Positions 2,789 through 62,578 of a stretch of DNA of 64,000 bases are shown piece by piece (within the stretch, counting starts at the first letter, position 1; each line of letters starts with the position of its first letter). This DNA comes from an uncultured Gammaproteobacteria bacterium. Its GTDB lineage: Bacteria > Patescibacteriota > Patescibacteriia > Magasanikbacterales > GWA2-37-8. The notes beneath the pieces are model-generated. The model was not told where the DNA came from. It did no database searches and was given only the letters and a program-made list of their open reading frames with translations. The position numbers were made by a program, and so were the translations under genes. The stretch lies in assembly GCA_964511375.1 (NCBI GenBank), contig CAZEEW010000001.1, positions 6,512-70,511 of the forward strand, written 5' to 3'.

Positions 2789-3994
2789 TTATCCAAACAT
2801 TAACCACTCTGGACGAAAAATTAATACCAAACCAATTACGACCATTAATATACCACCAATGAGCCTAGAATATCTAGTATACTTTCCGGTTATACCAGTT
2901 ATATGTAGAGTGGTCATGGCGACAAAAAAAACAAAAAGATCATCTAAAAGGAAGAAGAGTACGTACAAAAGCAAATATCCATAGTATTGCCAGGTTGGTA
3001 AATTACTTAAAGCTAGAATTTGCGTATACACAGCCGGAAAGCCAGCTGAACAGACTAATTCAACTAAATTCACCGCAAAAGCAAGCAGTATTATTCCACC
3101 GAACGCTAACCAAAAATTCTTCTCCAGGGTTATCTCTTTCAGCCGAGCGAAGACCTTTTTTCTTTCATCACTATTTGTAACCTTACAGGTTGCTTCCCGA
3201 TTTGTAAAATATTCTTTCAGATTGTATGCTCCTCCACCCAAGGCCACCAAGCCAATAATTATACGAACTAAAAAGATAAAACCTAAAAACATTATTAAAT
3301 TCAGCCAGGCGGCCATGAACAAAAAGTACACCGCTGCCGAAGACACCAGGAAAGCCGATCCCAACACCCACATACGGCGCCGATTCTGCATGCCCAACAA
3401 TAACGAAATTAAAAATAACAAAGTCCACATAGCGCACGGATTAAAGCCGTCCAAAGCTCCGATCAGTATGGTTATAACCGGTAATGAAAGATTGGCCGTG
3501 TTGACCTCACCAATTAAAGGAACTTTTAACTTCCTGGCTACAGGGTCCTTTGGCCGAACCTCAGTAGTACTATTGTTCATTACCTTACTACCAACGATTT
3601 CTGATACACTATCGGTACAAGTATGTCTTAAACAATAGTCTATTCTTTCTTCAATTTCCGCTGGAGTAACGGCATCTTCATAACCAATAAAATACTTGTC
3701 TCCCACTACCGTAAAAGGCACCCCACCCACTTGCGCCTTTAAAATACTAGCAACTTTTTCAATTAGCTTAATATTCTCTGGGTGGCGGTATAGTTCATAA
3801 CTGTACACCTTCACTCCATCGTACTTATCTTCCATCATTTTCAAAAACGGCTTTTCTTCCGCGCAATGTGGGCAGCCTTCACCCCAGAAAAAATAAACAT
3901 TTAATCTATCCTCGTTCGCAGCCGAAACAAAAGTTGGGCCAAACAACAGTCCAACCAATATTAAAAAACTAAATATAAATCGATTAGGCTTCAT
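2789..3994 (-). CDS. Signal-peptide thioredoxin domain (WGEGCPHC) fused to a CcdA/DsbD-type transmembrane thiol-disulfide transporter domain
   Basis: N-terminal signal peptide, CPHC thioredoxin motif, then polytopic region containing the conserved-Cys CcdA/DsbD motif LDGFNPCAMW. Start overlaps the upstream gene by 11 nt. Confidence 0.7.
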   Translation of the reverse strand: MKPNRFIFSFLILVGLLFGPTFVSAANEDRLNVYFFWGEGCPHCAEEKPFLKMMEDKYDGVKVYSYELYRHPENIKLIEKVASILKAQVGGVPFTVVGDKYFIGYEDAVTPAEIEERIDYCLRHTCTDSVSEIVGSKVMNNSTTEVRPKDPVARKLKVPLIGEVNTANLSLPVITILIGALDGFNPCAMWTLLFLISLLLGMQNRRRMWVLGSAFLVSSAAVYFLFMAAWLNLIMFLGFIFLVRIIIGLVALGGGAYNLKEYFTNREATCKVTNSDERKKVFARLKEITLEKNFWLAFGGIILLAFAVNLVELVCSAGFPAVYTQILALSNLPTWQYYGYLLLYVLFFLLDDLFVFFVAMTTLHITGITGKYTRYSRLIGGILMVVIGLVLIFRPEWLMFG

Positions 3995-5690
3995 AAACTA
4001 ATTTGATATAACACGCCTCGCAAGTTAATTTTAAATTCCGACCTGGCTGCAAACGTGACCAGATTCTTTTCTGACAATTATTACAGGTATTTGGGTACAG
4101 ACTAAACGAGCGGAAAGCAATACTACGCCTGGTTCGGCGAACGATCGGGTGCTCTTGTGGCAAAGCCAACCCCATTTGACGATGAAAATCTAATTCGGGT
4201 TTGGCGATTCGAAAAGCTCGACCATTAACACGGGATTTAAAAACTTTTTGTACAATATCATCTGTAGCATCCTCTAAATTGTTTGGTATCTGGCTAATAT
4301 CTGCTCCCGGTTCATTCTTTTCGGAAGCAAAATCGTAGTAACGCATACCGAGTTTTTTTACTTCCCCTTCTTCAAGCGGATACAAGACATTGGCATGCGT
4401 CGTGTTGTAGGAAAACAACGACAAATGATAGGGAAAGAAATTTCCGTATTCCCCTCTTTTAAACATTTCTGTTTTTATCTCATCTACCTTTTGCCAATAT
4501 TCTCCCTCTGAGTATTCCTTATTAAAAATATGGAATTTTTTATGACGCAACCCAATACACCCAAAACAGTGCTCGGAAGAATAACAAAACTCTGAATATT
4601 CAACATCCGAACAATTGCCGCAGCTTAAGCTCATTTTCGTATCATAACTCGGCACCATACTAACGCAATTTACCAAACGTTCCGATCCAGAGGAAGTTGT
4701 TACGTCTAAGCAGTCACGTAAATGAGAAACATCAAATACATTATAAGAATGTTGGACGTTGTAAGCATAACCACCAAAAACATCCCGTGAACTTCCCAAC
4801 TGGTCTCCAACCACATCTTCACTGGTGTAACATTGTCCAGCCAAATGGTAAGCCTTCTCCCAAAACTCGTGTGCTTTCTTTTCCCACTCCGAAACGACTT
4901 TAGCATCCTTAAAATTCACTTCCGCTAATCGCTTACTATATTCCCCTTCTGTTAGTTGCTCGTTAAACCAACAGTACTTCTTATGGACCAAGTTTGTACA
5001 GCCGAAACAATATGAACAACTTTCACATTGGTAAGAAAAATACATTTCTAAACAAGCCTCACACCGTTCAGAATAAAATATATGCGAACTATCTGTACAC
5101 TGGACGGCTTCATAGCACCATTCAGAATTAACTAAGGCCGTACAATCAGTTGAAAATTTTGCATCAGCGCAAAAATCTGAATAATTTAATCCCTGGCTAT
5201 TCAAGCCGCCGTAGACAAAATAACAATCACGACTTTGTAAGTCATATAACGCCCAAGCACTATTTTCACTATTCGGATCCTGGTTAATCGCCGGGCGAGG
5301 AATATTCCAAGAAAATTCTTTATACTGATCAAAGAAGCTCTTTTCTGGATCGCAATCACGCGCGTAAGAGAGAGCGTTAAAATTATCCGAATTCCATTCT
5401 TTATTAGACCGCAACTTTGCCGGACTTTCCGGGTCATACATGGAAATTAACATCTCCCCATTCTCCGCTGGACGCCTAAACAAATCAAAGCCAGCCATAA
5501 AAGAACGCAGACGACGAAAACGCACCCACGGTGCAACCGTAGGCAAGGGCATTTCTAATGCCTTGTACAAAGCAAATTCTCTTTCAGATATTACAAACTT
5601 CGTGCCGGTTTCTGTACATGTTCTCTCTCCTGGTTTCTCCTTCGTGTAATATTCATCTAAAAGTGCTTTAAACTTTGGTGTATTCGACAT
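3984..5690 (-). CDS. Cytoplasmic cysteine-rich repeat protein, family unrecognised, with C-terminal zinc-ribbon-like CxxC-x17-CxxC
   Basis: 568 aa, about 40 Cys, no signal peptide. Two internal repeats of CxxC-x9-C..C..CFGC-x-L-x-HKK-aromatic-x-FN-x3-(T/S)EGEY. Coupled 10 nt downstream of the ATPase gene. Confidence 0.6.
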   Translation of the reverse strand: MSNTPKFKALLDEYYTKEKPGERTCTETGTKFVISEREFALYKALEMPLPTVAPWVRFRRLRSFMAGFDLFRRPAENGEMLISMYDPESPAKLRSNKEWNSDNFNALSYARDCDPEKSFFDQYKEFSWNIPRPAINQDPNSENSAWALYDLQSRDCYFVYGGLNSQGLNYSDFCADAKFSTDCTALVNSEWCYEAVQCTDSSHIFYSERCEACLEMYFSYQCESCSYCFGCTNLVHKKYCWFNEQLTEGEYSKRLAEVNFKDAKVVSEWEKKAHEFWEKAYHLAGQCYTSEDVVGDQLGSSRDVFGGYAYNVQHSYNVFDVSHLRDCLDVTTSSGSERLVNCVSMVPSYDTKMSLSCGNCSDVEYSEFCYSSEHCFGCIGLRHKKFHIFNKEYSEGEYWQKVDEIKTEMFKRGEYGNFFPYHLSLFSYNTTHANVLYPLEEGEVKKLGMRYYDFASEKNEPGADISQIPNNLEDATDDIVQKVFKSRVNGRAFRIAKPELDFHRQMGLALPQEHPIVRRTRRSIAFRSFSLYPNTCNNCQKRIWSRLQPGRNLKLTCEACYIKLVYEA

Positions 5691-5700
5691 ACTGACTTAA

Positions 5701-7218
5701 CTAAATTGGCGGCAACATGTCTTCTAGTTTATCTTTTTTCTCCGGACCCGCTTCCGGAGGCATGAAGGGATCAGTTGAAGCTTCCTCCTCCTCTTCATCT
5801 TCTACGTATTCCTCGTCATCGTCTTCTAACGGACTTTCCTCTCCTGTTAAAACCTCGGCAATCGGTTTGCTAAACCTTATCCGCGATTCTTTAATTACCT
5901 CCTCCACTCTTTCGGATCGATTAGCCTCTATAACATCTAATGTAGTTGCCGAAAAAGCAGTCGTCACCTTTCCTTCAATCGACATTTTGATATAAAATTC
6001 CCGCCCCCCAATATTGGTCAAATCTTTTGGTTCAACTAGGGGCTGAAATTCCTGAGCCAGCCTTTCCGAATCCGCTCCACTTACTCTGAAGGCGATTAAT
6101 GTGCCAACATTACCAAAAATTGCCTCCTGTAAATCTTCAGGAATCTGGGCCAAATACTGGTTAGCCACAGTAATATTGATGCCGTATTTACGAGACTCGG
6201 AAAATAATGACGTAAATGATTTCGTCGCCACATTTTGAAACTCATCCACATACAAATAGAAATTCTTACGCTCTTTCTCAGGTATCTTAGCCCGAGCCAT
6301 TGCCGTCTGGTTAATCTTCGTTAAGAAGAAAGTTGCAAACAAAGCGCTGTTTTCTTCACCCAAAGTACCTTTTGAAGCGTTGATCAAAAGGATCTTCTTG
6401 TGGTTCATTATATTCTCAAAATCTATTTTACTCTCCTTTTGCGAGAAAACTGCGCGGAGTAATGGATCAGCAAAAAATTGTCCCAACCGATTTGTTAAAG
6501 GAGTTATAGCCTCCTGGTCATATTTTTGCGTAAAGCCAGCAAATTCAACCGTAAAAAATCTTTTAACGACTTCATCAGTTACATGTTTCATAACCCCCTG
6601 GCGATACTGTGGGTCAGTTAAAAGCTGCAAAAAACCATACAATGTTCCTTCTGGATTTTCCAAAGTTGCTAAGGTTGCAAAACGGAACAAATGTTCAATA
6701 CGCGGTGTCCAAGTGCTAGCAAATTGCTTTTTAAATATTTCTACCAATCCCTGTGCTACAATCTGGCGGTATTCAGCCGGGACCTGGGCAAAAGGATTAA
6801 AGGATATGGCATATTCTGGATCTCCTGGATTAACATATACGACATCAGCTAAACGCTTTTCCGGGATAAATTCTAATATCTGTTTTACCAAATCTCCATG
6901 CGGGTCAATTACTGCCAGGCCAAAATCATAGGCAACATCAAAACGGATGAGGTTTTCTAGCAGCTTACTCTTGCCCATGCCACTTTTCCCAATTATATAC
7001 ATGTGGCGCTTTCGATCCTCCCGCTTAATGCCAAACACATCCCGATGACGATAAAGCCCCTGGGCAAAATTTGTTTGCCCAAAGAAGGATGCTTGCGTCA
7101 TCTGGTTCTTGGCGTACTTCGGGAGATTAACGGGAGGAGGAAGAAGTTTAAAATTCAGGCTCTCCAATGAATTAATATCTGCCATAATAGAAGGTAAATG
7201 ATGGATATATTCTAGCAC
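5701..7218 (-). CDS. Soluble P-loop ATPase of the VirD4/TraD/TraG (type IV coupling protein) / HerA-FtsK-like superfamily with poly-acidic C-terminal tail
   Basis: Walker A GKSGMGKS and Walker B LYVDEFQ. No N-terminal TM helices. C-terminal EDDDEEYVEDEEEEE. First gene of a three-gene minus-strand operon. Confidence 0.6.
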   Translation of the reverse strand: MLEYIHHLPSIMADINSLESLNFKLLPPPVNLPKYAKNQMTQASFFGQTNFAQGLYRHRDVFGIKREDRKRHMYIIGKSGMGKSKLLENLIRFDVAYDFGLAVIDPHGDLVKQILEFIPEKRLADVVYVNPGDPEYAISFNPFAQVPAEYRQIVAQGLVEIFKKQFASTWTPRIEHLFRFATLATLENPEGTLYGFLQLLTDPQYRQGVMKHVTDEVVKRFFTVEFAGFTQKYDQEAITPLTNRLGQFFADPLLRAVFSQKESKIDFENIMNHKKILLINASKGTLGEENSALFATFFLTKINQTAMARAKIPEKERKNFYLYVDEFQNVATKSFTSLFSESRKYGINITVANQYLAQIPEDLQEAIFGNVGTLIAFRVSGADSERLAQEFQPLVEPKDLTNIGGREFYIKMSIEGKVTTAFSATTLDVIEANRSERVEEVIKESRIRFSKPIAEVLTGEESPLEDDDEEYVEDEEEEEASTDPFMPPEAGPEKKDKLEDMLPPI

Positions 7219-8069: not shown

Positions 8070-8624
8070 TTAATTGTTTGGCTTCTGCCACTCTGTATTA
8101 TCTAAAAATTCTTTATTTACCTGACGCGCCACACTAAGAATCATATCCTTCGGAACCAGATAATCTTCATAGTCAGGACCCTCAACCGTTTCTATTATTG
8201 GCAAATTTGGATCAGTGGAACCGTGCGTTTGCGCAATCATTTTTTCACCAGTTTCAGTTTCTGCCTCTACTTTCATATCTTCCTGCATGCCAAAATCTAA
8301 TAATTCCCAGTCACGAACAATTTCATATTCTTTTGGGGTTATCTGCCAAATCGTACCGTAAGTGACTGCCCCTTTCTTTGGCCTAATGATATATAACCTT
8401 GCATCTGCACTAAGCGAGCTTCCCATAATCTCTCGAGGAGATTTAGGCGCCGGGGCAGTAGGCAAAATTTTATCTGGTATATGTTCTAAGCCCTGTATTA
8501 CCAGTTCATAATCCCGTACAATGCCTTTCGCCCCCTCTAGACTGTCCCTCCCAATCATCGCCGCCATCATATCGTGATCGCGGTTAGTACCGTATCCAAA
8601 ATATGGGATATATTCCATAGTCAA
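8070..8624 (-). CDS. Gamma-glutamyl cyclotransferase-like (AIG2/GGCT fold) protein
   Basis: N-terminal YFGYGTN motif typical of the GGCT/AIG2 family. Shares the C-terminal block IWxIxPxEYE..R(D/E)WE..D(F/Y)GM..ED with the paralog at 9743..10291. Confidence 0.6.
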   Translation of the reverse strand: MTMEYIPYFGYGTNRDHDMMAAMIGRDSLEGAKGIVRDYELVIQGLEHIPDKILPTAPAPKSPREIMGSSLSADARLYIIRPKKGAVTYGTIWQITPKEYEIVRDWELLDFGMQEDMKVEAETETGEKMIAQTHGSTDPNLPIIETVEGPDYEDYLVPKDMILSVARQVNKEFLDNTEWQKPNN

Positions 8625-8787: not shown

Positions 8788-9753
8788 ATGGGAGAAGCAA
8801 CGCCTGGGCGTATTACTGAAATAATGGGCATGCCTGAAGTAACAGGTAATACTGACAAAAAATCGGATAAAATAGAGAGTGTAACAAAGAAGGACTTGAG
8901 AGTCGTCGTTCCAAAAGCAGGAGAAACAGTAGTGGTACTACAGTGCAATGCTAAAGATAATAGGGAAATCGACAAAGAAACTGGGGAACCGGGCCCAAAT
9001 TATGGAAAACTCGAAGTCAGTGCAGCAGAAGAGGTAGAAGTAAGTGCGAAAAGATATTTTCTCGAAGTTATTTCTAATCTAAACGATGAGGAAAGAAAGG
9101 ATATTGAGATAGCAGTATTTGCTACAAATGCTCCGCTGGTTACTCCAGAATCTCTATTAACGAAACAAGGGATAAGCTATGACAGCCCACACAGACGGGC
9201 TTTTGATACCGCAGAATTAGTAATTAGGGGGATACGAGCTGCGATTGAAGAGTCCGGACTAGATAAAACACAACTACTTAATGATGGAGAACTTCAGGAA
9301 TTTGCCGACCCAGAGGGACCCCTGACTTTACCAGAGGATCTTAGTGGATTAAAGATGTTGCGTCCAGAACACCAAAAATTTGTTAAAGCACTTTTAGACA
9401 AGTATGGCCCCAGAGAAATGTGGGCCAAATTCGAAGAAGATGCAGACAGTAAAGAAAGAAAAACGATGGGGGTTGAAGGTGTAAACGAGGTCCACGACAG
9501 ACTTAGTAATATCATTAAACTTATAGTAAGAGCAACTAAAGAACGTCACAAAAATAACCCACGTAAGAGGACTTTGGTGTGGTTCGATGTGATGGGAGAT
9601 GAGGCTGCGCCTTTTGTCAAAGGCAAAATTACCCGTCAACCTCAGGCAGAATTTGTTGCTTTTCAAAAAGCAGGTGGTGTTACTATCGAAGTACCACCCA
9701 CAGGTAATGCTAGAACAGAAATAGGCGGTAAGAAGTTTGGATTTAAACTTTAA
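8788..9753 (+). CDS. Hypothetical protein (321 aa, acidic, cytoplasmic)
   Basis: Own consensus promoter. Flanked by the two inverted GGCT-like paralogs. 3' end overlaps the convergent paralog by 11 nt. Confidence 0.5.
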   Translation: MGEATPGRITEIMGMPEVTGNTDKKSDKIESVTKKDLRVVVPKAGETVVVLQCNAKDNREIDKETGEPGPNYGKLEVSAAEEVEVSAKRYFLEVISNLNDEERKDIEIAVFATNAPLVTPESLLTKQGISYDSPHRRAFDTAELVIRGIRAAIEESGLDKTQLLNDGELQEFADPEGPLTLPEDLSGLKMLRPEHQKFVKALLDKYGPREMWAKFEEDADSKERKTMGVEGVNEVHDRLSNIIKLIVRATKERHKNNPRKRTLVWFDVMGDEAAPFVKGKITRQPQAEFVAFQKAGGVTIEVPPTGNARTEIGGKKFGFKL

Positions 9754-10291
9754 CAAGTTTCTTCTTCGCAGCAATATAATCTAATCTCACCTTCCTTTTC
9801 ATGGCCAATTTTTTTCTGGTTGGAATTTCTTCCCTTATATAGCTTTCGTCGATCACTCTTGTGATTTTTTTAGGATTCTTTACTAGACCATAAGTCTGCA
9901 CAGTGACCAAATCACCTTCAGCCGTTTTTGCCTTGGCAACAATATCTTCAGACATCCCGTAGTCTATCATCTCCCACTCCCGCAAATACTCAAATTCTTC
10001 TGGACTAATGTACCAGATCTTTCCTCTGACGGTTTTATTAGGGTTCTGGCGTATGGCATAGAGCTCATAAGCCTTGCCAAAATTCTTGCTAATTATTTCT
10101 CGAGGAGACAATTTCAATGGTGAATTTTTTGGAATTTTATTACTTAAGTCTTTAGTAGTCAATAAGCACATCTCGTATCCGAGTAATTCGGCATCCTCAA
10201 ATAATAATTTCCTTCTTCCAAACAGGGCTCTGAGACCCTCAATATTTTCCTTGACAACATAAGAAAAAAACTTGACTAAATTCTTTTTCAT
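9743..10291 (-). CDS. GGCT/AIG2-like paralog lacking the N-terminal YFGYGTN signature (possibly catalytically divergent)
   Basis: Aligns by eye with 8070..8624 over the C-terminal 120 aa. N-terminus reads FFSYVVKEN instead of YFGYGTN. Confidence 0.55.
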   Translation of the reverse strand: MKKNLVKFFSYVVKENIEGLRALFGRRKLLFEDAELLGYEMCLLTTKDLSNKIPKNSPLKLSPREIISKNFGKAYELYAIRQNPNKTVRGKIWYISPEEFEYLREWEMIDYGMSEDIVAKAKTAEGDLVTVQTYGLVKNPKKITRVIDESYIREEIPTRKKLAMKRKVRLDYIAAKKKLVKV

Positions 10292-24837: not shown

Positions 24838-27800
24838 CTATTTATTTATTTCAAACCCTGGCCCAACAAAATGCATGGCATCAAGAATCGTTTGGGTTTC
24901 TGGTAATATTCCGGCGACCATTACATTGTTACCAAAAAAATTCTCAATAACATCACCTACTTTGCTAAACAGTTTGCTCTCAATCATCGTTTTTGCCTCG
25001 CTTGAACCAATATATACTGGTAAGTACTGCTCACCACCCAGGTTAACAATGTCAAAGCCTTGGATGTCATTTTTAAGTTTTTGTGGGACAGGGCGAGAAC
25101 CATTAGGTAATTCCGTGGGTATCGTAGTTGATAGGCCGGATGCAGGAAGAATGAAATAGAAGCTCTTTATTATCTCCCCCTCCGCCACATGTTTAATCGA
25201 TGCAGAGTTCATCATCTTCGCTAAGGTGGCATTGTTTAGGAAGTGATACTTATCGATCAAAGTACCAGTCGGTTCGAGTATCCCAACAACCCTAACGCTT
25301 GGTAAGCCAAAGAAGTTTGTTAAACTATCCCCAGCACCTTTAATAAGACCTTCCTCTTTCATCATCATGGCTTCATCGTAACCAATTACCATTTCGTTAT
25401 TACCCAGGGCCAAGGCACCTTCACTGGCTTTTAGCATGCCGGGTAAATTTTCTGTACCCAAGAACAACTTAGGGTCACCACTCGCAAAATAAATTTTGGT
25501 TTGTCCGTTAGCAATAAAAGTATTAAAGATTGCGGCGTTCTCAGCTGATACAGTACCGCTCATACCCCGGCTTTCCATGCCTGAACTAAGTTTAGCAAAC
25601 TGGAAAAAGCCCAAAGTAAATACCACTACCATAACTAACGGGGCAACTAGTGAAAAATAGTTTCTTTTATCTGGTTTGAAAAAACGCAACAACAAAGAAT
25701 TTCCCACTACCGAAATAGAACTCAAAGCCATGGCCAAACCCGCAAGCTCGGGTTTCAACACTAAACCTAAGCCAACAAACACACGAGCAGCAATCGGGAT
25801 GCCTACCACATTGTAAAACAAAGCAAAAAACATGTTCTGCTTAATTTTCGTTAGGGTCTCTCTAGAAAGCTGTATGGCGTGCACAACATCACTTAAATCG
25901 TTTCTCATTACTACTACCCCACCAGTTTCCATTGCCACGTCAGTACCACTGCCCATAGCAATCCCAAGATTGGCTTGGGCCAAAGCTGGGGCGTCGTTGA
26001 TTCCATCACCAACCATAGCAACTTTCTTGCCAGACTCTTGCAATTTTTTTACTTCTTTTGCTTTGTCCTCCGGTGGCACTTCAGCCAAAATATTTTTTAT
26101 ACCTACCTGAAGAGCAATCGCCTGCGCGGTCCGTTCGTTATCGCCAGTAATCATGTAAACTTCTACTCCCATTTTCTGCAGTTTTTCTACTGCTTGCTTT
26201 GAGGTTTCCTTTACGGTATCTGCTACAGAAATTATACCCAACACCCCTTCCTCACTCCCGAGAAGCATGGCAGTTTTGCCATTTTCTTCTAGACGAATTA
26301 ATTTTCGATTAGCATCCCCCACTTCGAGATTGGCCACCTCAGTCATCATCTTCCGATTACCAAAGTAATATAACTTACCCTGAATTTGTCCCTGCACACC
26401 GTAACCAGGTACGGCTTTAAAGTTTTCAACCTCTACTAAGGCGACTCCCTCTTCCCTAGCATAGGCATAGATGGCTTCAGCCAAAGGATGCTCAGATAGT
26501 TTCTCTAGGCTAGCGACAACAGATAAGATATCGTCCTCATCTCTACCACCTAAAGTTATTACATCCGTTACTTCTGGTTTACCTTTAGTCAAGGTACCAG
26601 TCTTATCAAAGACAATGGCATTTACTTTACAAGCAGTCTCTAATGGTTCTCCGCCTTTAACAAGAATACCGTTTTCCGCCCCCTTGCCCGTACCTACCAT
26701 AATAGCGGTCGGTGTTGCTAGACCCAAAGCGCACGGACAGGCAATAACAATTACCGAAGTGAAGGCCATGAGCGAGAAAGCCAACGAAGCGCCGAGAAAG
26801 AAGTACCAAACTATAAATGTTAGGGCAGCCAAAACCAAAACGATTGGGACAAACTTAGCAGAAATTTTATCTGCAAAGTCCTGAATTGGAGCCTTGCTTC
26901 CTTGCGCCTCTTCGACCAAACGAATAATTTGCGCCAAGACCGTTTCACTACCTACTTTGGTAACTGTAAAATCAAAACTGCCGGTTTTGTTTATCGTGCC
27001 GCCGACCACATTATCTCCTGCTTTTTTCTCTACCGGAATACTTTCGCCCGTTACCATGGACTCATCGATCGCGGAAGCACCACGGACAACCGTTCCGTCA
27101 ACCGGAACTTTTTCTCCTGGCCGGACAATCACCACGTCTCCCCTGACCACTTCATCAATGGAAATATCTTTAGCAACTCCATCTCGAATTACGCGAGCCG
27201 TCTTAGCTTGGAGTCCCATCAATTTTTTAATTGATTCTGAAGTTTTCCCTTTCGTTCGAGCTTCTAACCACTTACCTAAAATTACAAAAGTAATAAGAAA
27301 AGCAGCGGTTTCAAAATACAAATCAGGTATTTTTTCTCCGTTTAAACCAGTGATTGAATTATTAGTAATAGCATAAATTATAAAAACGGCGAGACTATAA
27401 AAGAAGGCGGTTGAGGTCCCAATTGCAATCAAACTGTCCATATTAAAAGTCCTCATGCGCAAAGCGGACCACATACCTCTATAAAATCCTCGCCCAATCA
27501 CGAACTGGATCGGGGCAGCCAAAACCAAAGAAACGACTCCGATATATGGCATTAAAAAAGCTCTCGCCGGTAACCAAGCAAAGAAATCCAAAAACATGAA
27601 ATACAACATCGGAGAACTCAAGATGGCACTAAAAAGAAACTTCCTAAAATAAGATTTCATTTCCACTTCCCGCTTCTTACTTTCCCACTCCGTATCCTTA
27701 ACATCAATTTCTTCGGCTTGATAACCTGCTTTCTTAACCGCGGACTTTAATTCCCCAATTTCCACCCCTCCCAATAAGGTAACCGTAGCTTTTTCTGAAG

Positions 27801-28476
27801 CAAAGTTGACGATGGCCTCTTTAACCCCGGGAACTTTCTTAAGTGATCGTTCAATAATCCCCGCACAACTAGCACAGTGCATTCCGGAGATGGCTAAATT
27901 TAACCTTGTTTGCTGTTCCTTGCTTTTTGAATCGGGAAGGGGCGTATTAACAATGGATCCGGCTTCGGGCTTGGGCCCATCTTTTGGAGAAGCCGTGCCC
28001 TCAAAAGTATTATTTAAAAACTGAGTACTTTTAAATAATTCAATCCAGTGCTTTTTTGAAACCTCTTGCCCTTTTGGCAATCTAATCTCCGCTACTTTCC
28101 GGTTTTTTAACTTTCCCTCAAAGTAGGATTTGCCCTTTTCGTCTTCTCTTACCCTACCTTCGGCTTCAGTGCTGGAATCTATTTTTAAAGAAACCGGCTC
28201 ACCTACTTCAGCTTCCTCAAAGCTCACCTTTAACCCGGTTGATTCGTGTCCTGGATTTTTTGTAACTACTTCAGAAACATATCCAGCCCGAGTAACTGCC
28301 GCAACCAAGTCTGCATCAGTCACCTGATTAAGGTCGGCCGTTACACTTGCTTTTCTGTCAACGAAGGATACTGTGGCGTCTTGTACTCCAGGCACATTTC
28401 TTAGTTCGTCAGTAATAATTGCCTCACAAGACTTACAGTGCATTCCTTCGATTTTTAACTCAACTTTTTTTTCCAT
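24838..28476 (-). CDS. copA: Copper-translocating P1B-type ATPase with two N-terminal HMA domains and a non-canonical C-terminal extension (extra TM helix plus about 260-aa domain)
   Basis: GMHCxSC twice, [25 protein letters not shown]. At 1212 aa it is about 300 aa longer than typical CopA. Confidence 0.85.
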
Positions 28477-40577: not shown

Positions 40578-43535
40578 CTATTCTTTTTTGTTTTCTCCGT
40601 CAAACCTTCTTCTTTTCCCTTTTAGTAACAATCCCACGATTACGCCGGCTGCGCCGCCGCCTAGAGCAGGCAGATATTTATCGCTCATTTCATTATTAGG
40701 TGCTACACCGTTTCTTTCTTTTATTTCCTCGGCTTGTCCCACAACCTTAATATCTTCTTGACTGCGCGGCCAAATCTGCAAACCAGTTTCTGACTTTTCA
40801 AGGATACCCACCACTTCTACCTTGTCTCCTTCAGCGAAATCTTTTTTATCTATTTTAGCTCCTCGTTTGAGGTACACTACGGCCTCCGCTTGACCATCAT
40901 CAATATACACAGAAGTGCTTTTGATTTCGGTAACGTCAGCCACAACTTTTACTAAACTACCCAATATGTCTTCGTTTAACTCATCGATGGTGTGCGGTGT
41001 ACTTGAGACAACATTTTCAACTGATAGCACATCAACATCTTTGGCGCCGCTTAATTTAATTCTTTTCTGTCCGTTCGCTTCGGAAATTATTCCTTGCACT
41101 TCTACTGCATCGCCCACGCTTAACTCCGGAAATAATTTCTTATATTGATAAATTTGAATACCGGCCAGTCCGTCAGTAATGTAAAAATACTGGCTCCCAA
41201 ATACCCCTGGCATGACTGCTACCGTTCCCCTAACTTTCACGCCATAATTTTTTGGTGCTTCTCGTGCCAAAGCCAAACTCATACTATTGTATCCAACACC
41301 AATTTTGCCGCTACCGCTGGATTTACTGGCGCTGGCGGCTGGGGCGATAATTTTTAAGCCTAAAACCTGCGCTAAGTTAGCCTTGCCGGGAGTAGGTTTG
41401 GCGAAAAGCCTCCATTCCTGACCAGCGATACCATAGCTCTGTCCGGGTTGACTTTCTCCAAATTTAACTAGGTCAGCACTAATGTTTTCCGGTGTTAAAA
41501 GTTCCACCTTATCCCCCTTGTTATCTAGATTTAATTTAGTCACTAAACGGTAGAATACTAGATAACTTTGCGGCGCAATAATCGTGTTCTCTGGAAAAAT
41601 GTACGTTTTATTTGTTATGTTCCGAAGTCGCCAACCACTAATATTCACGGGTGTTGACCCAAAATTAAACAGCTCTACAAATTCATTACTATCTGCCCCC
41701 TCTGGGTTAACAAATATCTCACTAATAATTACCGCACTGTTTTTTAGCGACAACCCTCCCCCAATATTTACTTCTACTTTCTTTTCTCCTTTGGTGCCGC
41801 TAGTACTGGTTGCCGTGACTTTAACAATGTATAAACCAGAGGTTGCAAAGGCGTATTCGACTTCACCGCCCCACTGTGTCTTGTCCGGAAATTCCCAGGC
41901 ATATTCAATCTCTCCACCGCGCGGGTCTGCCGAGTCTTCGGCATCAAATACCAGGGCTTCGCCCGGTTCGCCCTGGCTAGGTGCTTTAATCTTCCAAATT
42001 ATTTTGGTTTCGTCAGGAGTAACAGCTTCATTAATTTCACCTGGTGTTGGTTCACTTGACCACTCCCATTTGTTATTTTCAAATCGGTTATAGCTCTCAC
42101 CCTCTGGGGCTTTGTCGTAGGCAACATAATCTGCTAGAAAATTATTAGGTGTGTACAGTCGCAACTCTTCCTTGCTGGAGTTATTTAAAGAAATATTAGT
42201 AATAGTTCTTCTAAAAAACACGATTTTCCCCGGCAAGATTGTTCCGCTTAAAACAAAGTTTTTTGTCGTGTCACCCAGTTTCCAATTTGCTAAATTAATT
42301 TCTTTATCACTAACGTTAATAATTTCAATAAATTCATTCTCCAAATCTGAGCCCGGGGGATTAGCATAGACCTCATTAATTAGTAGGCCACTGAAAGTGG
42401 TGGTCGAAGTGTCCGCTTTGGTTTCGCTTTTATCCTCTGTTTTGTTTTCTATTTTGGGCGGAGTCGCTCCACCACCTCCACCGGTCGGAACCGGACGAGG
42501 AGTTATGATGTTGGCTGCTCCAGAAGTAATTGTTCTGGTAATTGCAAAGCTGCCCTCACCATCATTCCCTCTCGCCAACGACTCATTTTTTTCTGGAGAG
42601 TTTTGTCCACTATATTCTACCTGGTCAACTATTTCACCACCAGGTTTACGCAAAACCACACTGTCTGCATCATTATTTAGGAAACTCTTTGTACCCAAAT
42701 CAAAGTATAGCCAACTTAATCCTGAAATAGTGCCGGTAACCATCTTGCAAGTGGAGGTTGCTTCACGATTATCACAAAGTAAACCGCCCGCCAAATCAAA
42801 GGCGGTGCTAGTAGTATTAAAAAACTCCACCCACTCATTTCCCTCGACCGGATCAGAAACAAATTCATTTATTTTAATAAATTCCCAAAGGTCTAAAATG
42901 CTCGGTGTTGAACTGGGAGTTTCTGGTGTAGACGTTGGTGTCTCGGGCGTGGTAGTGGGCGTGGTAGTGGGTGTTGTAGTCACGACCGAGCCTGACGGTT
43001 CGGTTGAAAAAACACTGTTAATTAAACCAACAGTATTGCCGCTCGAATGTTCTCGCCAATTACTGGCGTCATACACCACAATAAAGGGACTAATTCTTTC
43101 CAAAGAATTATTCGCAGCATTAATAAATGTAAATTGCTCAATAAAATTTCCATTCTCATCCTTTAAGCCAACCTCTTCACCGGACTCATTTAAACTGCTC
43201 CATGAAGAATCAAATACCGAACCCAAAAAACTTGGATAGTCTAATAAAAAATTTTCAGCGTTCTGAGTTATTACAGCGTACTCGCCAGGATTAACTATAC
43301 TGTCAGTTGTACTAACACTTAATCCGTGATTGGTGCCATCTTCCCAAAATTTCCAATCTTTAATGTCTACCGGCTCATTGCCCTTGTTCCATATTTCCAA
43401 CCACTCGTGACCGCTCGCCGCGTAACAACCAAGTTCGTTAATTACAATGTCTGTGTTGGCTGCCCGGGCTAAGCTGAATAAAACAAAAAAACTGCTGATT
43501 ATCCCAACAGTTAATACAAAAAGCTTGTTTTGCAT
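40578..43535 (-). CDS. Large cell-surface protein with four lamin-tail-domain (LTD)-like repeats, Thr/Pro linker and C-terminal membrane anchor
   Basis: Signal peptide. Repeated INE(L/F/V)...G.(E/N)(W/F)(L/V/I)E(I/F/L)(W/F/I)N......(W)(K/R)(F/L) blocks. TTTPTTTPTTTPETP linker. C-terminal LPALGGGAAGVIVGLLL plus KGKRRR. Confidence 0.65.
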   Translation of the reverse strand: MQNKLFVLTVGIISSFFVLFSLARAANTDIVINELGCYAASGHEWLEIWNKGNEPVDIKDWKFWEDGTNHGLSVSTTDSIVNPGEYAVITQNAENFLLDYPSFLGSVFDSSWSSLNESGEEVGLKDENGNFIEQFTFINAANNSLERISPFIVVYDASNWREHSSGNTVGLINSVFSTEPSGSVVTTTPTTTPTTTPETPTSTPETPSSTPSILDLWEFIKINEFVSDPVEGNEWVEFFNTTSTAFDLAGGLLCDNREATSTCKMVTGTISGLSWLYFDLGTKSFLNNDADSVVLRKPGGEIVDQVEYSGQNSPEKNESLARGNDGEGSFAITRTITSGAANIITPRPVPTGGGGGATPPKIENKTEDKSETKADTSTTTFSGLLINEVYANPPGSDLENEFIEIINVSDKEINLANWKLGDTTKNFVLSGTILPGKIVFFRRTITNISLNNSSKEELRLYTPNNFLADYVAYDKAPEGESYNRFENNKWEWSSEPTPGEINEAVTPDETKIIWKIKAPSQGEPGEALVFDAEDSADPRGGEIEYAWEFPDKTQWGGEVEYAFATSGLYIVKVTATSTSGTKGEKKVEVNIGGGLSLKNSAVIISEIFVNPEGADSNEFVELFNFGSTPVNISGWRLRNITNKTYIFPENTIIAPQSYLVFYRLVTKLNLDNKGDKVELLTPENISADLVKFGESQPGQSYGIAGQEWRLFAKPTPGKANLAQVLGLKIIAPAASASKSSGSGKIGVGYNSMSLALAREAPKNYGVKVRGTVAVMPGVFGSQYFYITDGLAGIQIYQYKKLFPELSVGDAVEVQGIISEANGQKRIKLSGAKDVDVLSVENVVSSTPHTIDELNEDILGSLVKVVADVTEIKSTSVYIDDGQAEAVVYLKRGAKIDKKDFAEGDKVEVVGILEKSETGLQIWPRSQEDIKVVGQAEEIKERNGVAPNNEMSDKYLPALGGGAAGVIVGLLLKGKRRRFDGENKKE

Positions 43536-61777: not shown

Positions 61778-62578
61778 TTAACTATTTGGTAGAAGGTTCC
61801 AACAAAGGTTGAATATGGCACGCTGACTGTCTGCAATTTCTTTGCTGCGTATTATTACACCCAGCATGTCTTTGTGGGAGACAATGAAGACATTGTCTCC
61901 GTAGATGTTAATCTCGTTGCTAATTGTCATTTTTTGTCTGTCCACCAGTTTAACAGTTCGTTTTTCTTCAACACTTTTTCCTTTGAAAGACTGGCCCACA
62001 GGCTCATCAGTTAAAATAGCATTAACATGGATATTTTTTTGAACTCTTTTTTTAATATATCCGGGATAATAGCCGTTAAGTGTTTTGACGGCTAGGCTTG
62101 TATCGTTCCATCCACATATTGTTGTGCTTGGTGTTTTAAGCGTGTCTTCCATTATGTTTACTAATCCATCATAACCTTCATAATATTCGACTCTGGGTTT
62201 ATTCCCTTTGTCTAAAGATACTGCTAGTGCCTCAAGTTCTGGTAAGACAGTTTGGGCCTTCTTTACTTTATCTAGAGCCAGTTCAACAATAATCTTTGGG
62301 TCAACGGCAACAAACTGAGTTATTTTTCGCCTGGAATAAGAGGCAACACACCCCTTTTTCATCAGGGACTTAAGAAGAACATAGGCACTTGGGCGCTTAA
62401 TATGTGCCCTTTTTGCTATTTCTGATGCTGGCGCCCCTCCTAGTTCCAGGGCTGCCAGGTAAATTTTAGCTTCGGCAGATTCGAAGCCGATATCCTTTAG
62501 TGTTCTGGTTAGATCCATATTTTTAATACTGTTGTAATTTACAACAACTATTTTAATATTTAACATGCCGGGTGTCAA
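61778..62578 (-). CDS. TrmB-family HTH transcriptional regulator
   Basis: N-terminal wHTH (ESAEAKIYLAALELGGAPASEIAKRAHIKRPSAYVLLKSL) and C-terminal sugar-sensing-type domain. Upstream palindrome GTTGTAA-t-TTACAAC at about 62590..62604 is a likely operator. Confidence 0.65.
   Translation of the reverse strand: MTPGMLNIKIVVVNYNSIKNMDLTRTLKDIGFESAEAKIYLAALELGGAPASEIAKRAHIKRPSAYVLLKSLMKKGCVASYSRRKITQFVAVDPKIIVELALDKVKKAQTVLPELEALAVSLDKGNKPRVEYYEGYDGLVNIMEDTLKTPSTTICGWNDTSLAVKTLNGYYPGYIKKRVQKNIHVNAILTDEPVGQSFKGKSVEEKRTVKLVDRQKMTISNEINIYGDNVFIVSHKDMLGVIIRSKEIADSQRAIFNLCWNLLPNS

What the first reader, a model, noticed from the sequence alone, without database searches (positions are those of the whole stretch)
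3984..5690. 568-aa cysteine-rich protein with internal CxxC-x9-CxxCxxCFGC...HKK...FN...EGEY repeats and a C-terminal zinc ribbon
Two clear copies of a roughly 40-aa Cys-rich unit are visible by eye: QCESCSYCFGCTNLVHKKYCWFNEQLTEGEY and FCYSSEHCFGCIGLRHKKFHIFNKEYSEGEY. More degenerate copies lie upstream.

A distinct N-terminal roughly 170-aa domain is present, as is a terminal CNNC-x17-CEAC ribbon. There is no signal peptide.

The motif spacing is not that of ferredoxins or radical-SAM enzymes. It could be a multi-zinc or Fe-S scaffold of an undescribed family.
Basis: seen in the sequence. Interest (0 to 1): 0.6.

Follow-up and report, generated by a model that had tools for sequence, protein, structure and literature searches.

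The report
Cysteine-ladder solenoid protein of Patescibacteria
This gene encodes one member of a very large, unnamed protein family found only in the ultra-small Patescibacteria (CPR): two stacked cysteine-lined beta-solenoid rods capped by small zinc fingers, usually encoded in tandem gene arrays next to orphan VirD4/TraD-like motor ATPases, with function still unknown.

Summary
The 568-aa ORF (3984..5690, minus strand) and its two Cys-rich motif copies are real: 16/31 identical, about 12 SD above shuffles. The duplication is larger than described. A whole ~130-aa module (131-262 vs 281-410; hhalign E=1e-37) is repeated, and each module is a beta-solenoid of ~8-9 coils of 12 residues. Cys sits almost only at every third, inward-facing position and swaps freely with Ser. 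These cysteines do not co-vary, so they are a structural ladder, not discrete Zn or Fe-S sites. True zinc sites are treble-clef modules at the ends (Pfam zf_Tbcl and zf_Tbcl_2 in relatives). The window protein keeps only the C-terminal one (C536/539/557/560).

The AF2 model is very confident (pLDDT 96, pTM 0.93), yet no solved structure matches globally. The core has no Pfam or NCBIfam model.

The family has about 6,300 clusters at 50% identity and occurs only in CPR. Members lie in co-oriented tandem arrays of ancient paralogs (up to 8 per 15 kb). Arrays are flanked in 26/85 loci by soluble VirD4/TraD-like ATPases, and the longer ATPases carry the same C-terminal zinc module.

Best reading: a cytoplasmic scaffold or adaptor working with these ATPases. 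The function is inferred, not shown.

The parts
3984..5690 (-). Complete ORF, 568 aa plus stop: Cys-ladder double beta-solenoid protein with treble-clef end modules
   Evidence: Full-length homologues. AF2 pLDDT 96.4, pTM 0.93.
5505..5690 (-). Residues 1-62: N-terminal treble-clef-like module (zf_Tbcl type), degenerate here. Only the invariant C25 remains; T28/A53/V56 replace the other ligands.
   Evidence: Pfam zf_Tbcl hits at this position in relatives P0056 and P0108. hhalign to residues 485-523, E=4.8e-17. Ligands 28/53/56 co-vary with phi 0.85-0.94.
5301..5504 (-). Residues 63-130: linker domain, mixed alpha/beta, acidic. It carries an extra Cys4 site (75/77/95/98) in about 17% of relatives, but not in this protein.
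4905..5300 (-). Residues 131-262: solenoid module A. About 8-9 coils of 12 residues with a Cys/Ser ladder, ending in the cap CESCSYCFGCTNLVHKKYCWFNEQLTEGEY and a helix.
   Evidence: DSSP 3-residue and 12-residue periodicity. 12-mer register and Cys periodicity. hhalign against module B, E=1.3e-37.
4938..5030 (-).
4461..4850 (-). Residues 281-410: solenoid module B, homologous to module A, ending in the cap FCYSSEHCFGCIGLRHKKFHIFNKEYSEGEY and a helix. It is followed by the most conserved stretch of the family (mean majority-residue frequency 0.64 for 393-425).
4497..4589 (-).
4260..4460 (-). Residues 411-477: variable acidic linker (window net charge about -7)
4101..4259 (-). Residues 478-530: second treble-clef-like module (zf_Tbcl type), strongly basic (+9, pI about 10). 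The zinc ligands are lost here (S486 etc.).
   Evidence: Pfam zf_Tbcl at the equivalent position in P0093, P0090 and P0120..
3987..4100 (-). Residues 531-568: C-terminal treble-clef zinc finger (zf_Tbcl_2 type), CNNC-x17-CEAC. This is the only fully conserved Cys4 site.
   Evidence: C536/539/557/560 are 97-100% conserved. PF23477 hits in relatives (P0058 at 28.3 bits against a cutoff of 27). Weak similarity to the second finger of LIM domains. The same module is found in neighbouring long ATPases.
5701..7218 (-). Upstream gene, 10 nt from the ORF start: soluble VirD4/TraD/HerA-like P-loop ATPase (505 aa) with an acidic C-terminal tail ending ...MLPPI. It is a recurrent neighbour of the family.
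   Evidence: Pfam TrwB_AAD_bind, TraG-D_C and T4SS-DNA_transf. No TM segment. Homologue within about 7 kb in 26/85 loci. Junction sequence.
2789..3994 (-). Downstream gene whose ATG overlaps the ORF's stop by 11 nt: signal peptide, thioredoxin-like CPHC domain and 6 TM segments. This linkage is seen only here and in the 87%-identical relative L008, so it is probably not a core part of the system.

Best explanation
What it is (well supported, about 0.9): a cytoplasmic member of a very large, Patescibacteria-restricted, uncurated protein family with a fixed architecture. The order of parts is:
- a treble-clef module;
- a linker domain;
- two homologous beta-solenoid modules of ~8-9 twelve-residue coils each;
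- an acidic linker;
- a basic treble-clef module;
- a C-terminal treble-clef zinc finger.

Every third residue of the solenoids points inward and is small (Cys, Ser or Ala). This gives a Cys/Ser ladder that packs the narrow core. It is a structural device, not a chain of metal clusters. Only the C-terminal Cys4 site is a conserved zinc site in this protein.

How it most likely works (inferred, about 0.35-0.45): the rigid, acidic double solenoid is a binding surface or scaffold. The basic zinc-finger ends are docking modules. The protein acts together with the soluble VirD4/TraD-like hexameric ATPases encoded beside it, as an adaptor, regulator or client of that motor. The long form of the ATPase carries the same zf_Tbcl_2 finger, which suggests a common docking partner.

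The co-oriented, tightly spaced arrays of ancient paralogues suggest co-expressed, specialised subunits or alternative adaptors. They do not look like a fast-evolving arms-race repertoire.
For: Structure:
- AF2 pLDDT 96.4, pTM 0.93, with 3- and 12-residue beta periodicity.
- A clean 12-mer register, C-[YF]-x-[CSv]-x-x-C-x-x-[CS]-E-[ND]. The Cys fraction is 0.33 at every third position and <=0.01 elsewhere.
- Module duplication, E=1.3e-37.
- Cys/Ser interchange.
- Zinc-site cysteines co-vary as units while the solenoid cysteines do not.

Family:
- 6,292 clusters at 50% identity at E<=1e-3, and 2,431 at E<=1e-30. The top 150 matches are nearly all 530-600 aa and full length.
- All named sources and all 79 genome loci are CPR lineages or unclassified MAGs.
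- The family is absent from phage and plasmid records and from IMG/VR contigs.

Cytoplasmic location: no TM segment or signal peptide in 209 of 215 members.

Link to the ATPase:
- An unbiased clustering of ORFs in 85 loci gives VirD4/TraD-like ATPases as the top non-family neighbour: 36 genes in 26 loci, 35 of them on the same strand.
- In the window the two genes are 10 nt apart.
- The pairing holds in relatives from 87% down to 29% identity (L008, L001, L011, L005).
- The long ATPases carry PF23477 zf_Tbcl_2 (L016 at 47.2 bits).
- An HMM of the family's C-terminal finger hits only those ATPases among 633 non-family ORFs: 9 hits.

Paralogues:
- 153 of 182 have their closest relative in another species.
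- In-array identity has a median of 43% and reaches at most about 50%.
- All 128 adjacent pairs are co-oriented, with a median gap of 95 bp.

Literature: CPR genomes hold about 2 VirD4-like T4CP genes each. Only 148 of 5,713 lie near virB4, and exaptation has been suggested (10.1101/2025.01.22.634366).
Against: - There is no experimental or direct computational evidence of a physical interaction with the ATPase.
- 59 of 85 loci show no ATPase within the flank. One example is L006, on a 928-kb contig.
- The window holds only one family copy and no zinc-finger-bearing long ATPase.
- No structural neighbour gives a functional precedent: the best Foldseek TM-score was <=0.10 for the full model.
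Confidence: 0.5

Rival explanations
1. Translocated effectors or host-interaction proteins. The arrays would encode a repertoire of substrates that the VirD4-like coupling ATPases hand to the CPR type IV secretion system (or another exporter) for delivery to the host bacterium.
For: - Adjacency to T4CP-like ATPases.
- No Sec signal.
- A conserved, strongly basic C-terminal ~90 aa (net +6 to +9). This recalls the positively charged C-terminal signals of VirB/D4 substrates (from established knowledge; not tested here).
- The CPR T4SS lacks relaxases and its substrates are unknown.
- Multi-copy arrays are typical of effector repertoires.
Against: - The ATPases here lack the N-terminal membrane anchor of canonical T4CPs.
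- They are rarely near virB4, and the T4CP was dispensable in Southlakia while the T4SS was essential.
- The architecture and length are rigidly uniform, and the paralogues are ancient with orthologues across species. This is unlike diversifying effectors.
- A tightly packed zinc- and Cys-stabilised solenoid is a poor unfolding substrate.
- The zinc module shared with the ATPase points to a cytoplasmic complex.
Confidence: 0.2
2. One reading: a multi-zinc or Fe-S scaffold in which the repeated CxxC/CFGC units bind several metal centres (a redox or metal-storage function).
For: - 26 Cys, with C-x2-C-x2-C-x2-C in each cap coil.
- C225, C228 and C378 are 96-99% conserved, with the adjacent F-G invariant.
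- Relatives have up to four co-varying Cys4 sites outside the solenoids.
- In the window, the downstream gene overlapping the ORF encodes a thioredoxin-like membrane protein.
Against: - Ladder cysteines swap with Ser at 25-50% frequency and never co-vary as sites.
- The window protein itself has S372 and H387 at cap positions.
- There is no ferredoxin (CxxCxxCxxxCP) or radical-SAM (CxxxCxxC) motif.
- The thioredoxin neighbour is not conserved beyond the 87% relative, and its Trx domain is predicted to be extracytoplasmic.
Confidence: 0.1
3. A nucleic-acid-directed role. The acidic solenoids would act as DNA mimics, or the basic treble-clef fingers would bind DNA or RNA, regulating or being loaded onto the FtsK/TraD-like DNA translocase. 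TrmB-type regulators are interspersed in the arrays.
For: - Acidic solenoids and very basic finger modules.
- The partner ATPase belongs to the DNA-translocase clade.
- TrmB-like HTH genes lie in 20/85 loci.
- One source names a member 'Zn ribbon nucleic-acid-binding protein'.
Against: - The net charge of the solenoids is modest in most members (median -3).
- No known DNA-binding domain was detected.
- The finger most resembles LIM-type protein-interaction fingers.
- TrmB linkage is confined mostly to Peri- and Peregrinibacteria.
Confidence: 0.12
4. A self-assembling structural or cytoskeletal element. Solenoid paralogues would stack end-to-end into hetero-filaments, as bactofilins do.
For: - The beta-solenoid fold.
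- Co-expressed arrays of ancient paralogues.
- High abundance of the family in tiny genomes.
Against: - Both solenoid ends are capped by conserved cap coils plus helices and by flanking domains, which normally blocks end-to-end stacking.
- There is no similarity to bactofilin.
Confidence: 0.06

Closest known systems
Tenebrio molitor antifreeze protein (TmAFP, PDB 1EZG/1L1I): 12-residue-coil beta-helix with an internal Cys ladder
   Same: - A 12-residue coil period with inward-facing Cys and Ser filling a very narrow core.
- A weak profile hit of solenoid positions 166-228 to 1EZG (E=0.42).
- Appearance among the structural hits of the domain model (TMt 0.29-0.43, not significant).
   Different: - TmAFP is a small secreted insect protein whose Cys form i/i+6 disulfides, and it has a TCT ice-binding face.
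- Here there are four inward positions per coil (0/3/6/9), no pairwise Cys co-variation and no TCT face.
- This protein has a cytoplasmic context, two solenoids and zinc-finger ends.
- This is analogy, not homology.
Left-handed beta-helix (hexapeptide) acyltransferases LpxD/GlmU/LpxA, and pentapeptide-repeat proteins (AlbG, SV2 luminal domain)
   Same: They are the best Foldseek hits, by local 3Di similarity of beta-solenoid coils.
   Different: - TM-scores are <=0.10-0.15.
- Their periods are 18 (3x6) and 20 (4x5) residues, not 12.
- This protein has no hexapeptide or pentapeptide Pfam match.
- It has none of the trimer-interface active-site features of the acyltransferases.
Pfam zf_Tbcl (PF13451) and zf_Tbcl_2 (PF23477), 'probable treble clef' zinc fingers; second finger of LIM domains
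   Same: - Relatives score at or near Pfam thresholds at the N-terminus, at about residues 470-515, and at the extreme C-terminus.
- The C-terminal CxxC-x17-CxxC aligns to the second finger of LIM domains (E=0.004-0.02).
   Different: - The window protein itself gives no Pfam hit at E<=1.
- It has lost three of the four ligands in two of the three modules.
- These Pfam families describe only the ~40-aa end modules, not the ~400-aa core.
Type IV coupling protein (VirD4/TraD) with its substrates or adaptors
   Same: Gene adjacency with VirD4/TraD-like ATPases, a conserved basic C-terminal region, and no Sec signal.
   Different: - The ATPases are soluble and mostly far from virB4.
- There is no relaxase.
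- No translocation has been shown.
- The family is uniform rather than modular like known effector sets.

Membership tests
Pfam zf_Tbcl_2 (PF23477), C-terminal module | HMM score at or above the gathering cutoff (27 bits) | tested here: not met
   The window protein has no Pfam hit at E<=1. Relatives: P0058 at 28.3 bits (met), P0056 at 26.0 bits (just below). Membership of the window module is therefore inferred through family alignment, not by direct score.
Pfam zf_Tbcl_2 (PF23477), C-terminal module | Four zinc ligands in two CxxC knuckles | tested here: met
   C536/C539/C557/C560 are present and 97-100% conserved.
Pfam zf_Tbcl (PF13451), N-terminal module and the 478-530 module | Two CxxC motifs, and an HMM score >=24 bits | tested here: not met
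   The window protein has only C25 in module 1 and none of the four ligands in module 2, and gives no HMM hit. Relatives P0093 and P0108 score 26.8-26.9 bits. Homology of the window modules to each other and to the family is shown by hhalign, E=4.8e-17.
TmAFP-type 12-residue Cys-ladder beta-helix | 12-residue coil period with inward-facing Cys | tested here: met
   12-mer register and Cys periodicity. DSSP periodicity.
TmAFP-type 12-residue Cys-ladder beta-helix | Cross-coil disulfide pairs (Cys i/i+6) conserved as pairs; a secreted protein | tested here: not met
   No i/i+6 co-variation, max phi 0.46. Free Cys/Ser exchange. No signal peptide.
TmAFP-type 12-residue Cys-ladder beta-helix | Flat T-C-T ice-binding face | tested here: not met
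   The coil consensus has no TxT. It has an aromatic residue at position 2 and E-[ND] at positions 11-12.
4Fe-4S ferredoxin / radical SAM | CxxCxxCxxxCP or CxxxCxxC cluster motif | tested here: not met
   The Cys spacing is C-x2-C-x2-C-x2-C and CxxC-x8-C. There is no Pfam Fer4 or Radical_SAM hit.
Hexapeptide left-handed beta-helix (LbH) transferases | Hexapeptide [LIV]-G-x4 repeats with 18-residue coils; Pfam Hexapep match | tested here: not met
   The period is 12. No Hexapep hit. Foldseek hits are local only, TM <=0.10.
T4SS substrate / T4CP client | Genetic linkage to a coupling-protein gene | tested here: met
   26 of 85 loci, including the window. The expectation from about 2 T4CP genes per ~1-Mb genome is roughly 3% (inference).
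T4SS substrate / T4CP client | T4CP-dependent translocation, or binding to the T4CP | not testable with these tools
   Needs a pull-down or translocation assay. No multimer prediction was available.

The most novel reading that the evidence does not exclude
The Cys-ladder solenoid arrays and the orphan soluble VirD4/TraD-like ATPases, linked by a shared zf_Tbcl_2 finger and by a conserved acidic ...P-[PL]-[IL] docking tail on the short ATPase, would form a previously unrecognised CPR-wide molecular machine. The solenoid paralogues would be its clients or adaptors. They could be the missing protein substrates of the relaxase-less CPR type IV secretion system that is essential for epibiotic growth.
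Probability: 0.15. Interest if true: 0.8.

Novelty: new variant of a known kind. Interest (0 to 1): 0.6.

Why it matters
Patescibacteria have genomes of about 1 Mb, yet many keep 4-8 or more copies of this 570-aa protein in one array. That is a large investment for a family with no name, no Pfam model for its core and no literature.

The analysis does three things:
- It gives the family a confident fold: a bacterial, cytoplasmic, 12-residue-coil Cys/Ser-ladder double solenoid.
- It separates true zinc sites from ladder cysteines.
- It ties the family genetically, and through a shared zinc-finger module, to the roughly 5,700 'orphan' VirD4-like ATPases of CPR, whose role is an open question.

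Together these make a concrete hypothesis testable in the few cultivable or genetically tractable CPR strains.

Tried and rejected
Sequence searches with no result for the Cys protein:
- Pfam, NCBIfam, PADLOC and PHROGs.
- PDB by single sequence.

Structure comparisons:
- Foldseek of the full model against PDB and BFVD gave only local beta-solenoid or zinc-ribbon matches, TM <=0.10.
- A domain-only AF2 model (residues 131-420, 34 sequences) was worse (pLDDT 73.9). Its PDB search gave nothing below E=0.24.
- Model coordinates could not be inspected, so handedness and Cys geometry remain unverified.

Collections with no match:
- Phage and plasmid records and IMG/VR contigs. A mobile-element or phage origin is rejected.

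Literature:
- Searches for the family, for zf_Tbcl/PF13451/PF23477, and for CPR Cys-rich paralogue arrays found nothing relevant.

Readings rejected:
- Antifreeze or ice-binding function: no TxT face and a cytoplasmic protein.
- Fusion artefact: homologues are uniformly full length.
- Disulfide-rich secreted protein: no signal peptide, and Cys/Ser exchange without pairing.
- The thioredoxin-membrane neighbour as a conserved partner: it is found only in the 87%-identical relative.
- A plain BLASTP self-comparison did not report the internal repeat. A diagonal-score test and profile comparison were needed.
Full report
OBSERVATION

The ORF is real: window 3984..5690, minus strand, ATG start, 568 aa, 26 Cys. 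Its N-terminus (MSNTPKF...) matches the family consensus MSxTPxFD, so the start codon is right.

They share 16/31 identities with an ungapped BLOSUM62 score of 92. The best diagonal in 200 shuffles of the protein averaged 27.9 +/- 5.3, with a maximum of 60.

The spacing is CxxC-x8-C, not x9. CNNC-x17-CEAC is correct. Hydropathy shows no signal peptide or TM segment.

ANATOMY

An alignment of 104 family members gave an AlphaFold2 model with mean pLDDT 96.4 and pTM 0.93. DSSP on the model shows a strict 3-residue, then 12-residue, beta periodicity over residues ~131-246 and 291-392. Each stretch is followed by helices. Small modules sit at both ends.

Written in 12-mers, the sequence and the family consensus line up as C-[YF]-x-[CSv]-x-x-C-x-x-[CS]-E-[ND]. 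There are about 8-9 coils per module. Cys makes up 33% of residues at every third position and <=1% at the other two. Small residues make up 53-66% of those inward positions.

The N-terminal module (24-62) is also duplicated, at 485-523 (E=4.8e-17).

In more distant members these end modules score as Pfam zf_Tbcl (PF13451). The last ~38 residues score as zf_Tbcl_2 (PF23477). A family profile also weakly matches the second zinc finger of LIM domains. In the solenoid it weakly matches the 12-residue-coil Tenebrio antifreeze protein (E=0.42).

ARE THE CYSTEINES METAL LIGANDS?

Two tests say the solenoid cysteines are not.

First, they exchange with Ser at high frequency. Examples are position 210 (C 53 / S 45), 192 (C 63 / S 27) and 366 (S 54 / C 42). 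Only C225, C228 and C378 are 96-99% conserved.

Second, I measured Cys co-occurrence in a 458-sequence alignment. The treble-clef sites appear and disappear as units:
- positions 28/53/56, phi 0.85-0.94;
- positions 489/514/517, phi 0.77-0.97;
- an extra site, 75/77/95/98, present in 17% of members, phi 0.97-1.0.

No pair of solenoid cysteines exceeds phi 0.46, and no i/i+6 (disulfide-like) pairing appears.

The window protein has T28/A53/V56 and S486, so it has lost two of the zinc sites that relatives keep. Its only canonical site is C536/539/557/560.

The CFGC cap coils remain unexplained. They are extremely conserved, but their four cysteines do not behave as a unit, and the window protein has S372 and H387 at cap positions. 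I could not inspect model coordinates, so a cryptic site there is not excluded.

COMPARISON WITH KNOWN STRUCTURES AND FAMILIES

The window protein has no Pfam, NCBIfam, PADLOC, PHROG or PDB-sequence hit.

Foldseek of the confident model against PDB returns only left-handed beta-helix enzymes (LpxD, GlmU, LpxA), with E about 1e-4 but TM <=0.10. Against BFVD it returns hexapeptide, baseplate and zinc-ribbon proteins, with TM <=0.10.

The fold class (beta-solenoid plus treble-clef fingers) is therefore known. The specific family and its 12-residue, four-position Cys/Ser ladder have no solved or curated counterpart.

DISTRIBUTION

A word-indexed search found 265 relatives. All were 'hypothetical', and the named ones came from Magasanik-, Kuenen-, Uhr- and Peregrinibacteria and the 'Patescibacteria group'.

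An exhaustive HMM search of 1.84 billion cluster representatives found 6,292 clusters at E<=1e-3 and 2,431 at E<=1e-30. The top 150 matches are nearly all 530-600 aa and full length.

The 79 loci kept come from essentially all major CPR lineages. L008 is an 87%-identical relative with the same neighbours.

There is no match in phage or plasmid records, or in 2.9 million IMG/VR contigs.

GENOMIC ORGANISATION

Of 86 loci, 58 hold at least 2 copies within about 15 kb, and three hold 8 copies. All 128 adjacent pairs are co-oriented, with a median gap of 95 bp.

The paralogues are old. In-array identity has a median of 43% and never much exceeds 50%. For 153 of 182 members the closest relative is in another species.

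The window itself has a single copy in 64 kb.

I clustered all 875 ORFs of the loci without prior assumptions. After the family itself (242 members), the most recurrent neighbours were:
- VirD4/TraD/HerA-like ATPases: 36 genes in 26 loci, 35 on the family's strand;
- TrmB-like HTH regulators: 25 genes in 20 loci, mostly divergent and interspersed, in Peri- and Peregrinibacteria;
- generic ABC transporters: 8 loci.

In the window the ATPase gene (5701..7218) ends 10 nt before the ORF's ATG.

These ATPases lack TM segments. The short type, including the window's, ends in an acidic run and a conserved ...P-[PLM]-[ILV] carboxy-terminus. The long type carries a zf_Tbcl_2 finger after the ATPase domain (L016 at 47.2 bits).

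An HMM of the family's own C-terminal finger hits those long ATPases and nothing else among 633 non-family ORFs (9 hits).

A 2025 survey reports 5,713 VirD4-like T4CP homologues in 2,918 CPR genomes. Only 148 lie near virB4. The T4CP was dispensable in Southlakia, and the authors raise the possibility of exaptation (10.1101/2025.01.22.634366). From those numbers a random 15-kb window should contain such a gene about 3% of the time (my inference). The observed figure is 31%.

The downstream thioredoxin-like membrane protein (2789..3994) overlaps the ORF's stop by 11 nt. It recurs only in L008, so I treat it as local context.

INTERPRETATION

Shown:
- the fold class and its periodicity;
- the duplication;
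- which cysteines behave as zinc sites;
- the CPR restriction and the size of the family;
- the array organisation;
- the enriched linkage to soluble VirD4/TraD-like ATPases, and the shared zinc module.

Inferred:
- The protein is cytoplasmic.
- The rigid acidic solenoids (window net charge -9 and -6) form a binding surface or scaffold.
- The basic finger modules (478-530: +9) are docking elements.
- The family works with the ATPases as adaptors, regulators or clients.

I put about 0.9 on the structural and family description, about 0.5 on a genuine functional link to the ATPases, and about 0.35-0.45 on the adaptor/scaffold role specifically.

The main rival is that these proteins are T4CP-recruited secreted effectors (about 0.2). 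It is favoured by the basic C-terminus and by the unknown substrates of the CPR T4SS. It is disfavoured by three things: the soluble ATPases that are remote from virB4, the rigid uniformity of the family, and the ancient orthologous paralogues.

A nucleic-acid-directed role gets about 0.12. A filament role gets about 0.06.

NOVELTY AND INTEREST

The parts are of known kinds (beta-solenoid, treble-clef fingers), so this is not categorically new. It is nevertheless an uncurated, literature-free, very large lineage-specific family with an unusual solenoid variant and a specific, testable genetic link to an open problem in CPR biology. I score interest at 0.6.

Noticed in passing
window 5701..5760 (C-terminus of the ATPase ORF 5701..7218, minus strand); also L001, L008, L020, L026, L044, L064, L080: The short-type VirD4/TraD-like ATPases end in an acidic run followed by a conserved carboxy-terminal peptide ...[ED]-x-P-[PLM]-[ILV]. 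The window and L008 end ...EDMLPPI; others end ...EEPLI...PEPLI or ...EAEPMI. This looks like a docking tail, comparable to the SSB C-tail or the HbYX motif. The long-type ATPases end ...EVPEDVLKKILE.
   Followed up: partly
window 2789..3994 (minus strand): A 401-aa protein with a signal peptide, a thioredoxin-like CPHC domain and about 6 TM segments. Its ATG overlaps the stop of the Cys-solenoid ORF by 11 nt. It gives only sub-threshold hits (Thioredoxin_3, and the conjugative thiol-disulfide isomerases TraF-like and TrbB). The linkage is conserved only in the 87% relative L008.
   Followed up: partly
window residue C25 of the ORF (nt 5616..5618): C25 is invariant in 104/104 members. Its three zinc-ligand partners (28/53/56) are lost together in about a third of the family, including this protein. 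I have no explanation for an orphan invariant cysteine.
   Followed up: partly
family alignment positions 75/77/95/98 (window nt ~5397..5468, where the site is absent): About 17% of family members carry an additional, perfectly co-varying four-Cys site inside the 63-130 linker domain (phi 0.97-1.0).
   Followed up: no
window 8070..8624 (minus strand) and 9743..10291 (minus strand): Two paralogous ~183-aa ORFs with weak AIG2_2 (gamma-glutamylcyclotransferase-like) matches. They flank a 321-aa ORF (8788..9753, plus strand) that has no family match.
   Followed up: no
window 61778..62578 (minus strand): A TrmB-like HTH regulator ORF (tblastn E=3e-17 to the TrmB-like genes interspersed in family arrays elsewhere). 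It lies about 56 kb from the finding.
   Followed up: no
window 40578..43535 (minus strand) and 24838..28476 (minus strand): A 985-aa protein with four Lamin-tail domains plus PKD and an OB-fold/DUF5689, which looks like a surface or nucleic-acid-binding protein. Also a 1,212-aa heavy-metal P-type ATPase with two HMA domains.
   Followed up: no
L006/L009 (CAZRCW010000001.1), L045, L079: Contigs titled 'uncultured Gammaproteobacteria bacterium' carry this otherwise CPR-only family. One of them is a 928-kb contig, which is the size of a CPR genome. The automated taxonomic labels of these MAGs are probably wrong.
   Followed up: no
L005 720..2420: A gene annotated by precomputed Pfam as DUF8128 sits upstream of two TraD-like ATPases and four family paralogues. 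In my ORF clustering it grouped with the ATPases, and it has one predicted TM segment, so it may be the membrane-anchored member of the ATPase set. My own Pfam scan gave no hit for it.
   Followed up: partly
window 5701..7218 (minus strand): The ATPase matches phrog_5156, of unknown function (E=8e-54, covering the C-terminal half of an 824-position profile). It is also distantly similar to Bacillus phage G gp156 and to a '0105phi7-2 DNA helicase or translocase'.
   Followed up: no
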